In this document: positions 45,301 through 48,300 of the stretch, piece by piece
How positions within the stretch are numbered: the first letter of the stretch is position 1
Layout of the letters: every line of letters begins with the position of its first letter
Assembly (NCBI GenBank): GCA_965216315.1
Contig: CBDCFN010000016.1
Location: forward strand, 1,856,001 to 1,920,000
Length of the DNA: 64,000 nt
Direction of reading: 5' to 3'
Source of the DNA: a bacterium
GTDB lineage: Bacteria > UBA10199 > 2-02-FULL-50-16 > JAJFLM01
Position numbers: made by a program

Positions 45301-48300
45301 CAAAAAGAATTTTGAGACGTCGACATCAACCTCGGCATCGGCAGCGACCTTGACCTCATCGCCGGCCTTGAGCTCCCAAGAGGCGATGATGGCCTTCCGG
45401 CCGTTGACGCGCACCCGCCCGGCATCCAGCAGGCGCTTAACGGCTTTGCGGGAGCAGTCAGGCAATTGCTCCTTGAGAAAGAGGTCCAGCCGGCTCCCCG
45501 CGGCCTTTGGTGAGACTTTGATCAAATCCAAATCCATGCGCGCTTATTGCTAATTTCCCCTTCAAAATCAAGAAGATCCCGCGTTTTATTTTCCACAACT
45601 TTAACTTTTCTGCTCCGATAATAAACCCCGAGGGCATACTTATGGGCGATGGAGCCAGAGGATATGTCGGTCTTGATGCCGGCGCAACATACGTCATACC
45701 CACGACACCGACCCCCAGTCAGCAGTGGGGGTTCAGCAGCACCGCACGTGTCGGTGGTGACTTCCGGCTCACGCAGGAGTCAACCCGACCTCTTCTCATC
45801 GTCGAAGGCACGGGGCTGCTCCACATCGGACCATCTACCCGAGTCGGCGCTGGCGCCCTTCAGCTTGGGCTTGGCCTTGAAACCAAAGGCTTCTTTCTTA
45901 GAGCGCTCGGAGGCCCCCTTTTCTATGGAGGCACTCCGCTCGGCTGGATTGGTGGCTTGGGCCGCGCCGAACTAGGCTTTCATGTAGGGCCCCATGTTGC
46001 GATCACGACAGGCCTGCTATTCGCTGGCCTGCCGGACAGCGCGTCTTCAAGCAGCTCTCGTGACAAGACGGAGTGCAGTCTTGAATATCCCTATCTCTGC
46101 GACACCAAGACGATCACAACCACCTCGCGTCATGATGCCTTCGCGATTGGCTTCAATCTCGGCATCCAAGTCTTCTTCGGGTCTCCGAATTTTTAGTTTA
46201 CACGATAACCCCGCAATGATACTTAGAGGATCCTTATGTCAAACTACTCGCTGAACAATTTGAGCTTCGAAATTCCCAATAACTGGCAAGATCAAGGAAT
46301 GTTGACCTTCACACTCCCTTCACCGGATAAAAACGTGAAGCCGAACGTTATCTTGACTAAAGAGCGGCTGATGCAGGAAATCAGCCTCAAAGACTACTTT
46401 GAACGGATTAAGCAGGCCGTCGCCAAGCGTGGCATCAAAGACTTCAAGGTCGAAGATGAACGCCAAATCGAGGTTAATGGGGTTCAAGCCATGCTGATGG
46501 TCTGTTCCTGGGATGTTTCGTCGATGAAGCAGATGCTCGGGGATGGCCAGAAAGAGCAGCTTGATAATCTCAAGCCCGGCCAGATCGTCAAACAGGTTCA
46601 GGTCAGCATGATCCACGACGGAACCGCGGTCAACATGACGGCGAGCTTCCCGGCAGAGCAATTCGATCTATATTTCAGGCCTTTCAAGCAGTTTATGGGT
46701 ACGATTAGCTTTAGCTAATGCATCCGAGTGTATTCATAATCTGAAGACACCCTAGAAAATTCGCAACTTTTGAATCGCCCCTCCGAAATGCCCAGTAGGG
46801 TCATTTAGGTAACGCGCCGCTGTGCGCCTATTCGGGAGGGTCGATATGAGTTTCGCATTCACTGCGGGAACGTCTTCGCTAAGTCTCGCTTCTACTTCAG
46901 TTCTGGCATCTTCAACCTTTGCAACGGACTTTATGGCTGAGCTCACGGCTAATCATCCTCCTGAGCCGGAGTACTTTCAGGCCGTGCAAGAAGTGGCGCA
47001 CAGCGTTGCGCCCGTTATCGACCAAAATCCTCAATACCGACGCTGGAAGATACTCGAGCGCATCGCGCGTCCCAATCACTCGTCCGGATTTAAAATTACA
47101 TGGGCCGACGGCGACGGAAACGTTCATGTCAATAACGGCTGGCGCATTCAACAAAATAGCGCCCTCGGACCTTATAAAGGCGGTCTCCGTTTCCATTCCT
47201 CTGTCAATTTATCCGTACTGAAATTCTTGGCCTTCGAACAAGTCTTTAAGAACTCTCTGACCGGCTTGAGAATGGGTGGAGCCAAGGGCGGAGCCGACTT
47301 CGACCCCAAAGGCAAATCGGATATGGACGTAATGCGTTTTTGTCATGCCTTTATGATGAAATTAGCCCGACACATTGGACCCAATACCGACGTCCCCGCT
47401 GGAGACATTGGCGTCGGCAAACGCGAGATCGGCTATTTGTATCGGCAGTACATGAAACTACGCCGCGAATATACCGGCGTCATGACAGGCAAGGGAGTTA
47501 ACTGGGGCGGCTCCCTGCTCCGACCTGAAGCCACCGGTTATGGCTCGGTTTATTTCGCTGCAGAGATGTTAGATACACGAAGCGATGCGATTGATGGCAA
47601 ACGAGTTGCCGTTTCGGGCTCGGGTAATGTCGCTCAGTTTACCGCCGAAAAGGTGATTGAACTCGGCGGCCTTGTAGTCACCATGTCCGATTCCGGGGGA
47701 ACCATCGTCGACAATGATGGCATCGATCGTAAAAAACTCGATTGGATCATGGACTGGAAAAACAATCACCGTGGTCGCATTGCAGAGTATGCGGATGAGT
47801 TCAATGGGCCGGCTGTCTCGTACCATGCCGATAAGCGCCCCTGGACCTTAACAGAATTCGAACTCGCCTTCCCGAGTGCGACTCAGAACGAAATCAACGA
47901 AGCGGAAGCCAAGGCAATGATTGCTGGTGGTTGCTTCTTGGTTTCTGAAGGCGCCAATATGCCCTGTGAACCGGGTGCCATTGCCGCCTTGAAAGCCGCG
48001 AATGCCTTGTATGGACCCGGGAAAGCCGCCAATGCCGGTGGCGTCGCCGTCTCGGGACTTGAAATGGCCCAAAACTTTCAGGGAATTGCCTGGACACGCG
48101 AAGAGGTTGATCGCCGCTTAAGGGAAATCATGAAAAACATCCACAGGGCGGCTGTCGAAACGGCTGCACGCTACGGCTCTCCAGGCGACTATGAGGTGGG
48201 CGCCAACATTGCCGGTTTCATCAAAGTCGCTGACGCCATGATCGAGTTGGGTCTGTAGATTTTCATTGGAATTTGCACCTAATCGCCCATTGAGCTAGAA

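What a model noticed while it worked through the whole genome (the two positions that open the first line are those of the whole stretch)
46846..48258. About 100 proteins, including FAS-I, ACC, PFK and GDH, carry one uncharged N-terminal 'L-A-S' signal
103 otherwise unrelated proteins begin with a 12-28-residue leader free of D, E, K and R, rich in S/T/L/A, that ends in [LVIA]-L-A-[SA]-[SAG]. It is neither a Sec, Tat nor lipoprotein signal, sits in front of complete enzyme domains, and is the likely targeting signal for the T3SS. The example given is GdhA (g02188).
Evidence so far: Profile scores are bimodal (valley at 8-12 bits); 117 over 9 bits, 14 dropped (13 judged Sec/lipoprotein/housekeeping by eye, 1 under 11 bits) leaving 103; 3 of 3586 internal windows and 136 of 1170 shuffled leaders score. 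77 of 103 have the sigma-28 promoter directly upstream, 3 a 17-nt-spacer form, 3 a promoter inside a mis-called start, and at least 13 of the rest follow a regulon gene in an operon. Starts re-picked from the promoter gave the leader in 5 more genes whose called start lacked it (g00146, g01326, g01682, g01867, g01980; call 109). All synonymous codons are used, so the signal is protein-level. GdhA orthologues (55-64% identical) in 3 of 3 relatives have neither leader nor pr [...]
(Added by a program. Inside this text positions count along the whole contig: contig position 1,856,001 is position 1 of the stretch shown here. "Call 12" and the like, gene names such as g00115 and contig names such as C1 are that model's own, and its searches are not shown. 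The text may have been shortened before it was handed on; [...] marks where a part breaks off. The agent that wrote the report below was given it as the finding of a first reader that could run no searches.)

Follow-up and report, generated by a model that had tools for sequence, protein, structure and literature searches.

The report
Shared export tag on injected enzymes
In one family of uncultured bacteria, about ninety unrelated proteins, including a full set of fat-making enzymes, begin with the same short uncharged tag, which most likely routes them through the cell's injection machine into a host cell.

Summary
The leader is real. About 85-100 unrelated proteins of this genome start with an uncharged S/T/L/A-rich peptide holding [LVIA]-L-A-[SA]-[SGA]. 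The motif exceeds composition (67 of 125 against 9.9 shuffled), uses all synonymous codons, and is tied to a sigma-28-type promoter whose likely sigma lies inside the T3SS cluster. A profile trained on two other genera of the family finds the same genes. Promoter and T3SS occur in 31 of 31 class genomes; the motif is family-specific (16 of 49 against 1 of 91).

Named cargo includes second-copy enzymes and a lipid pathway: eukaryote-type ACC with its own biotin ligase, fungal-type FAS-I, acyltransferase, DAG kinase. Best reading (0.55): a T3SS export signal for delivery into a host cell, with chlamydial glycogen enzymes as precedent. Secretion is not shown. Against it: no T3SS secretin or class I chaperone was found, the leader is Leu/Ala-rich unlike known signals, and FAS-I is the genome's only fatty acid synthase. 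Corrections: same-family GdhA keeps leader and promoter, and 58 of 87 cargo proteins have no Pfam domain. The scan noted the promoter earlier in this genome (e1-7801342); look-ups found no such leader on other DNA.

The parts
46763..46789 (+). sigma-28-type promoter (GCAAC box, 16-nt spacer, CCGA box) of the tagged gdhA
   Evidence: sequence; PWM score 21.6; spacer spectrum
46834..46840 (+). ribosome-binding site supporting ATG 46846 as start
   Evidence: sequence
46846..46914 (+). uncharged leader, residues 1-23 of GdhA
   Evidence: profile score 27 bits; absent from most GDH homologues, with a variant in P0003 and present in same-family genomes
46900..46914 (+). conserved core V-L-A-S-S
   Evidence: L in 74 and A in 83 of 86 leaders
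46921..48258 (+). complete NADP-specific glutamate dehydrogenase domain; a second, untagged GDH lies elsewhere in the genome
   Evidence: NCBIfam PRK09414 above cut-off; motifs aligned with homologues; paralogue
31766..32656 (-). second leader-bearing gene of the window (296 aa, no family)
   Evidence: score 7.2 bits; no Pfam or NCBIfam hit
32689..32715 (-). its sigma-28-type promoter
   Evidence: PWM 21.8
7074..7877 (-). promoter-led gene with an uncharged N-terminus but no L-A-S core (broader class)
45642..46196 (+). promoter-led gene without any leader (shows that promoter and leader are separable)

Best explanation
The leader is a family-specific export signal for the non-flagellar T3SS. 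Shown: the peptide, its tie to the promoter, the FliA-type sigma inside the T3SS cluster, the apparatus genes and the cargo identity. Inferred: on host contact the sigma switches on about 220 genes; about 90 products carry a two-part signal (hydrophobic residues 2-4, then a phi-L-A-S docking core at about residue 15-23) read at the export gate without a class I chaperone; they pass unfolded through a needle-like filament and refold in the ATP- and NADPH-containing cytoplasm of a host cell. There the lipid enzymes make acyl-CoA and glycerolipid that the bacterium, which lacks type II fatty acid synthesis, takes back, while kinases, cyclases and unknown proteins steer the host. Whether the host is a prokaryote or a protist is open (roughly even).
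For: Motif beyond composition and tied to the promoter; gain of leader and promoter together in GDH. Sigma is FliA/WhiG-like and sits among sct genes; promoter and SctN in 31 of 31 genomes. Apparatus: V, D, J, L, N, O, P, Q, S, T by Pfam, R by position only (not scanned), U elsewhere; inner-rod-like x0778; needle-like x0772 next to a TPR chaperone, in chlamydial gene order, with a predicted complex at 0.90 against best control 0.19 (mark reached by 116 of 157 solved and 2 of 215 mismatched pairs; runs agree in at least 69% of contacts, partner pLDDT at least 56; like complexes are solved, so the pass may show likeness only). No flagellin, sheath protein, VipB or second secretion ATPase of the GspE family found. 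S/T enrichment and charge depletion match known T3SS signals (PMC2669295). Nine tagged enzyme domains have untagged paralogues. ACC carries its own biotin ligase and a PPTase-like gene with a weak leader sits beside FAS-I, as expected for work outside the home cytoplasm. No ribosomal, tRNA-synthetase or replisome family among 156 scanned candidates. 31 of 61 class genomes have no malonyl transacylase match, so FAS is dispensable in the class. Precedent: chlamydial glycogen enzymes carry T3S signals (PMC4829429).
Against: No secretin in any of 42 class T3SS loci; G000's only full secretin is GspD, so the route across the outer membrane is unknown. No CesT-type chaperone over cut-off in 31 genomes. 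Needle- and translocator-like proteins lack the motif, and the core sct genes have no promoter site directly upstream. Known signals are Leu/Ala-poor and motif-free (PMC2669295), whereas this leader has L 17% and A 16%. FAS-I and histidine ammonia-lyase have no untagged paralogue, and FAS-I is the only FAS found. A fas-plus-PPTase pairing is also normal for in-house FAS-I (recalled). Cargo reaches 3,854 residues. The regulon also holds ordinary Sec-signal proteins, so co-regulation does not imply export. The T3SS is class-wide but the motif is not.
Confidence: 0.55

Rival explanations
1. In-house tag: the leader marks proteins of one life stage for a cytoplasmic protease or adaptor, or docks them on a scaffold or membrane; the enzymes work in the bacterium's own cytoplasm.
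For: FAS-I is the sole FAS found. Histidine kinases, a sigma-70 region 4 protein, adenylate cyclase and lipoproteins with their own signals make sense at home. A fixed motif suits a binding partner. No secretin found.
Against: One tag on soluble enzymes, membrane proteins and lipoproteins alike. Most tagged enzymes duplicate untagged copies and are strongly diverged (23-35% identity). Half of the class has no detectable FAS. In other families FAS-I and ACC giants are also promoter-led with long N-terminal extensions. No receptor candidate found.
Confidence: 0.2
2. T3SS signal, but delivery stops short of a host cytoplasm: cargo goes to a shared lumen (vacuole, prey periplasm, vesicles, or the own periplasm, since no secretin is known), as chlamydial glycogen enzymes reach the inclusion lumen.
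For: No secretin; translocator candidates x0793, x0794, x0796 have no transmembrane segment; PMC4829429 shows luminal delivery; Myxococcales T3SS lack a secretin (PMC3459982, PMC12075869).
Against: ACC, PFK, kinases, FAS-I and GDH need ATP, CoA and NADPH, which a periplasm lacks (established knowledge). Needle-, rod- and TPR-chaperone-like genes are present.
Confidence: 0.14
3. Atypical Sec signal cleaved by signal peptidase I after L-A, with export by Sec and the T2SS.
For: phi-L-A followed by small residues resembles a cleavage site; a complete T2SS is present.
Against: No basic n-region; hydropathy 1.48 against 2.79; the conserved Leu sits at -2, which the peptidase does not read (recalled); some proteins carry a true Sec, Tat or lipoprotein signal behind the leader; cargo needs cytoplasmic cofactors.
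Confidence: 0.07
4. By-product of translation or DNA history: extensions arising from leaderless transcripts or from one copied promoter-leader cassette, with no protein role.
For: 30 of 62 promoter-led leaders start within 14 nt of the promoter.
Against: The same peptide occurs behind long UTRs with an RBS (22 of 29); synonymous codons vary; only 14 of 86 leader regions have a non-self DNA match, mostly paralogues or upstream repeats; the motif is kept across three genera.
Confidence: 0.04

Closest known systems
T3SS-secreted glycogen enzymes of Chlamydia trachomatis (Gehre et al. 2016, PMC4829429; passages read)
   Same: Ordinary metabolic enzymes given an N-terminal T3S signal to run a pathway outside the bacterium. 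Chlamydiae are among the nearest SctN relatives outside the class (62-65%), and three cluster genes match chlamydial genes.
   Different: There the signal has no fixed motif and the enzymes also work at home when secretion is off. Here there is a consensus core, a lipid pathway with activating enzymes, and no secretin.
General N-terminal T3SS effector signal (Arnold et al. 2009, PMC2669295; passages read)
   Same: First 25 residues rich in Ser/Thr and depleted of acidic and basic residues.
   Different: Known signals are Leu/Ala-poor and show no conserved residues; this one is Leu/Ala-rich with near-invariant L-A.
Two-part export signal of early flagellar subunits (Bryant et al. 2022, PMC8983047; abstract read)
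   Same: Unchaperoned substrates with a hydrophobic extreme N-terminus and a spaced docking motif; the leader has that layout and no class I chaperone was found.
   Different: Different motif; substrates there are structural; binding to SctU was not tested here.
Xanthomonas translocation motif TrM (PMC6638074; abstract read)
   Same: A conserved N-terminal motif shared by several T3SS effectors.
   Different: Pro/Arg-rich, cardiolipin-binding and HpaB-dependent; this one is uncharged.
Myxococcales secretin-less T3SS* (PMC3459982, PMC12075869, PMC12428579; passages read)
   Same: Secretin-less apparatus in a deltaproteobacterial lineage; T3SS* acts on bacterial prey.
   Different: T3SS* is described as lacking needle and translocon and works with a Tad pilus. 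Here needle- and rod-like genes are present and no Tad ATPase was found.

Membership tests
T3SS export signal | N-terminal, within about 30 residues | tested here: met
   core ends at residue 10-34, mostly 15-23
T3SS export signal | Ser/Thr enriched, charges depleted | tested here: met
   S 18.2%, T 10.1%, D+E+K+R 1.2% against 6.5, 5.7, 22.0%; partly by construction of the set
T3SS export signal | Leu/Ala depleted, no fixed motif (PMC2669295) | tested here: not met
   L 17.2%, A 16.3%; L 74 and A 83 of 86 at fixed places
T3SS export signal | Co-regulated with a T3SS in the same genome | tested here: inconclusive
   sigma inside the cluster and promoter before two cluster genes, but not before core sct genes; sigma-promoter pairing inferred
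T3SS export signal | Necessary and sufficient for T3SS-dependent export, not cleaved | not testable with these tools
   needs an assay
Complete injectisome | Export apparatus, ATPase, sorting platform, inner rings | tested here: met
   SctR assigned by position only
Complete injectisome | Needle and inner-rod subunits with chaperones | tested here: inconclusive
   x0778: PF17001 in 9 of 19 homologues (best E 0.0015), hhalign 96% to a chlamydial gene; x0772: E 0.001 but probability 20%, no Pfam needle hit, predicted complex 0.90 against 0.19
Complete injectisome | Outer-membrane secretin SctC | tested here: not met
   none in 42 class loci; only GspD and a 253-aa weak match in G000
Complete injectisome | Hydrophobic translocators | tested here: inconclusive
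   candidates beside TPR chaperones have no transmembrane segment and only faint needle-like hits
Sec/SPase I signal peptide | Basic n-region and hydrophobic h-region | tested here: not met
   no SignalP available
Lipoprotein (SPase II) signal | Cys after L-A-[SAG] | tested here: not met
   S, G, A or T stand at that place
Tat signal | Twin arginine | tested here: not met
   leaders hold no Arg; one protein has a Tat-lipoprotein signal behind its leader
Fungal/mycobacterial-type FAS-I (cargo x0370) | AT-ER-DH-MPT-ACP-KR-KS order with KS Cys-His-His | tested here: inconclusive
   AT, ER, DH, MPT, KR; KS by match to G056 and triad read by eye with recalled motifs; ACP domain not detected

The most novel reading that the evidence does not exclude
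This family uses a Chlamydia-like but secretin-less T3SS to install a self-activating lipid factory (ACC with biotin ligase, FAS-I with PPTase, G3P dehydrogenase-like, acyltransferase, DAG kinase, NADPH-yielding enzymes) and bacterial-type regulators in the cytoplasm of a prokaryotic host. Some cargo carries a second Sec, Tat or lipoprotein signal to be read by the host's own export machinery. That would be parasitism by transplanted metabolism, addressed by a T3SS signal with a readable consensus, in an LPS-less class that is largely unable to make fatty acids.
Probability: 0.25. Interest if true: 0.93.

Novelty: new variant of a known kind. Interest (0 to 1): 0.75.

Why it matters
How T3SS substrates are recognised is a long-standing question because known signals have no consensus. 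Here are about 90 natural examples with a fixed core in one genome, plus orthologues with and without the tag, which makes point-mutation and receptor tests direct. The cargo list also gives a testable lifestyle for an uncultured class (T3SS in 31 of 31, no LpxC in 31, no malonyl transacylase in 31 of 61): host-dependent cells that may outsource lipid synthesis. Eukaryote-type ACC in 17 of 61 of these genomes bears on the history of that enzyme.

Tried and rejected
Sec/SPase I, lipoprotein and Tat readings failed their defining features. A nucleotide-level signal and a copied cassette were rejected. No other injection machine was found: sheath family 0 in G000, VipB 0 of 5 genomes, no GspE-family paralogue, hence no PilB/PilT/TadA/VirB11, no flagellin; type IV and type I systems were not searched by family. 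Markers of life in eukaryotes were not found in G000: nucleotide translocase (weak matches in 11 of 61 class genomes) and ankyrins. CesT search gave no receptor candidate. A single-sequence fold of the FAS C-terminus was uninformative (pLDDT 41), so no fold search was run. NCBIfam added little to 79 proteins. The G3P-dehydrogenase label for x0869 stays a lead (E 3e-4, Atlas 0.86-0.87, no PDB hit). The ACP-like label for x0371 is by eye only. The ACC tree is a quick, unrooted tree with long branches; the careful search did not finish, so no donor is claimed. Recalled regexes for HutU, FabZ, FabH, PlsX, PlsY found nothing but are too crude to count. Literature: 'UBA10199' gave 27 papers, none on secretion by title or abstract start; searches for a T3SS-secreted FAS/ACC and for an uncharged leader with sigma-28 gave 0 papers; some searches gave the comparisons cited. 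The library lacks most subscription papers, and no supplements were read.
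Full report
Observation. The example gene is as described. Window 46846-48258 encodes a 470-residue protein: a 23-residue uncharged leader ending V-L-A-S-S, then a complete NADP-glutamate dehydrogenase (residues 26-469, 665 bits against a cut-off of 536). An RBS supports the start, and a promoter of the form GCAAC, 16 nt, CGA lies 59 nt upstream. I laid the genome (2.96 Mb, 98% complete) and called 2,435 genes with a simple model of my own; names such as x0370 are from those calls.

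More than chance. A strict pattern matches 61 of 4,429 N-proximal ATG starts and 4 of 12,107 internal Met positions. The promoter was defined without protein information: 293 of 827 CAAC-N16-CGA sites lie outside gene bodies, against 64-121 for spacers 14, 15, 17 and 18. Of 218 promoter-led genes, 125 begin with at least 15 uncharged residues, against 148 of 2,217 other genes. 67 of the 125 hold the motif, where shuffling the uncharged stretch gives 9.9 +/- 2.9. My profile gives 86 genes at 7 bits or more, 66 of them promoter-led; many of the rest follow a regulon gene or have a weaker site. A profile trained only on 21 leaders from the two other genera of the family finds 63 genes at 8 bits or more, 49 promoter-led and 57 in my own set. 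Codons at the motif broadly follow genome usage, and only 14 of 86 leader regions have any non-self DNA match. The signal is therefore in the peptide and is not one copied cassette. A further 58 promoter-led genes have an uncharged start without the core, so the L-A-S set is the sharp end of a broader class.

Anatomy. Residues 2-4 are mostly hydrophobic, a Ser/Thr/Ala/Leu spacer follows with Leu favoured at -7, then [LVAI]-L-A-[SA]-[SGAT]; L is kept in 74 and A in 83 of 86. The uncharged run usually goes on for about ten residues past the core. Peak hydropathy is 1.48 against 2.79 for 37 lipoprotein-like signals. About half the promoter-led leaders start within 14 nt of the promoter (30 of 62), the others mostly behind an RBS.

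Distribution. The nearest named SctN homologues (71-75%) come from uncultured 'Deltaproteobacteria' genomes, followed by Acidobacteria and Chlamydiae. That this is GTDB's UBA10199 lineage is my recollection, not a tool result. The promoter (21-140 sites per genome against 1-20 at a spacer one base shorter) and SctN are in 31 of 31 genomes searched. The leader is not: 9 of 20 promoter-led ORFs in G001 and 7 of 29 in G002 score 7 bits or more, against 1 of 65 and 0 of 26 in other families. Family f9 has uncharged starts without the core (11 of 26). For GDH, leader and promoter occur together in 3 of 29 frames, all in this family, and neither occurs in the other 26. One further database homologue carries a variant leader (P0003).

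Cargo. I scanned 156 of 165 selected candidates against Pfam. Of the 87 best-scoring, 58 have no domain. The rest include GDH, phosphofructokinase, malic enzyme, histidine ammonia-lyase, cysteine desulfurase, acyl-CoA ligase, acyltransferase, DAG kinase, a HAD hydrolase, Ser/Thr kinases, a hybrid histidine kinase, an adenylate cyclase, a helicase and LamG lipoproteins. Lower-scoring or merely uncharged regulon members add RtcB, a macro domain, RelA/SpoT, GGDEF and more histidine kinases. No ankyrin, F-box, U-box, LRR or SET domain appeared. x1797 fuses biotin carboxylase, biotin carrier, carboxyltransferase and biotin ligase; its carboxyltransferase and that of neighbour x1796 match only eukaryotic ACC well. 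x0370 is a diverged fungal-type FAS-I with a KS triad read by eye; its G001 orthologue keeps leader and promoter. A PPTase-like gene with a weak leader lies beside it (Atlas 0.90; no Pfam hit). Catalytic motifs look intact by eye (motifs recalled). Nine tagged domain types have untagged paralogues; FAS-I and histidine ammonia-lyase do not. Five of 86 tagged proteins carry a full lipoprotein signal behind the leader, against 8 of 1,592 controls, but four of the five are one paralogue family; a Tat-lipoprotein and two more cases appear under a looser rule.

Lipid context. G000 has no stand-alone FabD or FabF, so the tagged FAS-I is its only synthase. This cuts both ways. It may serve at home, but 31 of 61 class genomes have no malonyl transacylase match at all (very diverged copies could be missed), and LpxC was found in 0 of 31. 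In other families, giant FAS-I and ACC genes are often promoter-led with long N-terminal extensions (9 of 13 ACC-like frames with the 5' end in view). The eukaryote-type ACC domain occurs in 17 of 61 genomes and 0 of 14 controls. All named hits among the 120 best to the G025 copy are eukaryotic, at 45-53%. In a quick unrooted tree 8 class sequences lie on one side of a 98% branch from 24 eukaryotic ones, with long branches, so no direction of transfer is claimed.

The machine. The cluster at contig 16, 339-372 kb, holds SctV, D, J, L, N, O, P, Q, S, T by Pfam, SctR by position, three TPR proteins and a FliA/WhiG-type sigma; SctU lies elsewhere. I find an inner-rod-like gene (PF17001 in 9 of 19 homologues) and a needle candidate. 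x0773 and x0778 match chlamydial genes upstream of SctN at 96-97% probability, and x0772 matches the small gene before the TPR gene weakly but in register (E 0.001, probability 20%; the Cds identities are recalled from gene order, and Pfam names those genes only as DUFs). A predicted complex puts the x0772 C-terminal helix on x0773 at 0.90 against 0.19 for the best control (116 of 157 solved and 2 of 215 mismatched pairs reach the mark; at least 69% contact agreement, partner pLDDT at least 56; like complexes are solved, so this may be likeness only). No secretin was found in 42 class loci, and G000's one full secretin is the T2SS GspD. No CesT-type chaperone passed the cut-off in 31 genomes. 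Needle and translocator candidates lack the motif; one cluster gene has a weak leader and another an uncharged start, both promoter-led. No flagellin, pilus ATPase, sheath protein or VipB was found.

Mechanism. I commit to a T3SS export signal for delivery into a host cytoplasm (0.55). Shown are the peptide, its promoter link, the apparatus and the cargo; export, gate docking, refolding in a host and lipid return are inferred. A prokaryotic host is favoured by stacked lipoprotein and Tat signals, bacterial regulators and the lack of eukaryote-like domains. A protist host is favoured by the Chlamydia-like apparatus, eukaryote-type ACC and the lack of motility genes. Rivals are an in-house tag (0.20), T3SS export to a lumen (0.14), an atypical Sec signal (0.07) and a by-product (0.04).

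Known systems. It works like the T3S signals on chlamydial glycogen enzymes (PMC4829429, passages) and has the layout of the two-part signal of early flagellar subunits (PMC8983047, abstract). It matches general T3SS signals in Ser/Thr and charge, but not in Leu/Ala content or in having a fixed motif (PMC2669295, passages). The apparatus shares the lack of a secretin with Myxococcales systems (PMC3459982, PMC12075869, PMC12428579, passages). Membership among T3SS signals cannot be granted without an assay. Searches found no description of this leader or of T3SS-delivered FAS/ACC; the library is incomplete and no supplements were read. The UBA10199 paper opened (10.1101/2020.04.27.061960, passages) concerns magnetosomes only.

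Verdict. A real, family-wide, undescribed N-terminal signal; most likely a new variant of the T3SS export signal with an unusual biosynthetic cargo. Interest 0.75.

Noticed in passing
31 class genomes; window 55391-58120: LpxC found in 0 of 31 genomes, although a BamA-like gene (by eye) and GspD are present: possibly a diderm class without lipid A.
   Followed up: partly
G000 contig 16, 19467-22210 (outside the window): acpP sits between a yceD-like gene and rpiB-glyA, with the usual plsX-fabH-fabD-fabG and fabF absent (usual order recalled): a clean loss of type II fatty acid synthesis.
   Followed up: partly
L391:1-7137 (-), L392:1020-9380 (-), L393:3822-11912 (+): Eukaryote-type single-chain acetyl-CoA carboxylase in 17 of 61 class genomes, 45-53% identical to eukaryotic ACC1 in the CT region.
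   Followed up: partly
L367:2-18697 (+); L360:1540-18504 (+); L361:339-18602 (+): Giant FAS-I fusions of 5,600-6,400 residues in other families; one holds a PutA (proline and P5C dehydrogenase) unit in front of FAS-I.
   Followed up: partly
L037:8021-9457: Three genes in chlamydial E-F-G order, including a needle-like subunit, in a cluster earlier called needle-less.
   Followed up: yes
L038:3939-12708: Five cluster proteins (x0791-x0794, x0796) have long variable N-parts and similar C-terminal helices, with faint needle-family hits in x0796 and a relative: candidate filament, tip or translocon subunits.
   Followed up: partly
window 46799-46806 and four other leader genes: A GGGTCAT-like word early in the 5' UTR occurs in 5 of 28 long-UTR leader genes, 0 of 71 other long-UTR regulon genes, and 0.35 per shuffle (pattern chosen after seeing it).
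   Followed up: partly
L121:201-10838 (-): Seven tandem LamG lipoprotein paralogues, five with the leader stacked before their lipoprotein signal and two without it: a natural test set.
   Followed up: partly
window 45642-46196 (+) and others: A second group of promoter-led genes begins M-G-D/E-G or similar; possibly another N-terminal class in the regulon.
   Followed up: no
L027 (G002): The tagged GDH-like protein of G002 is only about 27% identical and has a long insertion after the leader.
   Followed up: no
window 40000-40788 (+): Lytic transglycosylase with a promoter site about 170 nt upstream; could serve T3SS assembly.
   Followed up: no
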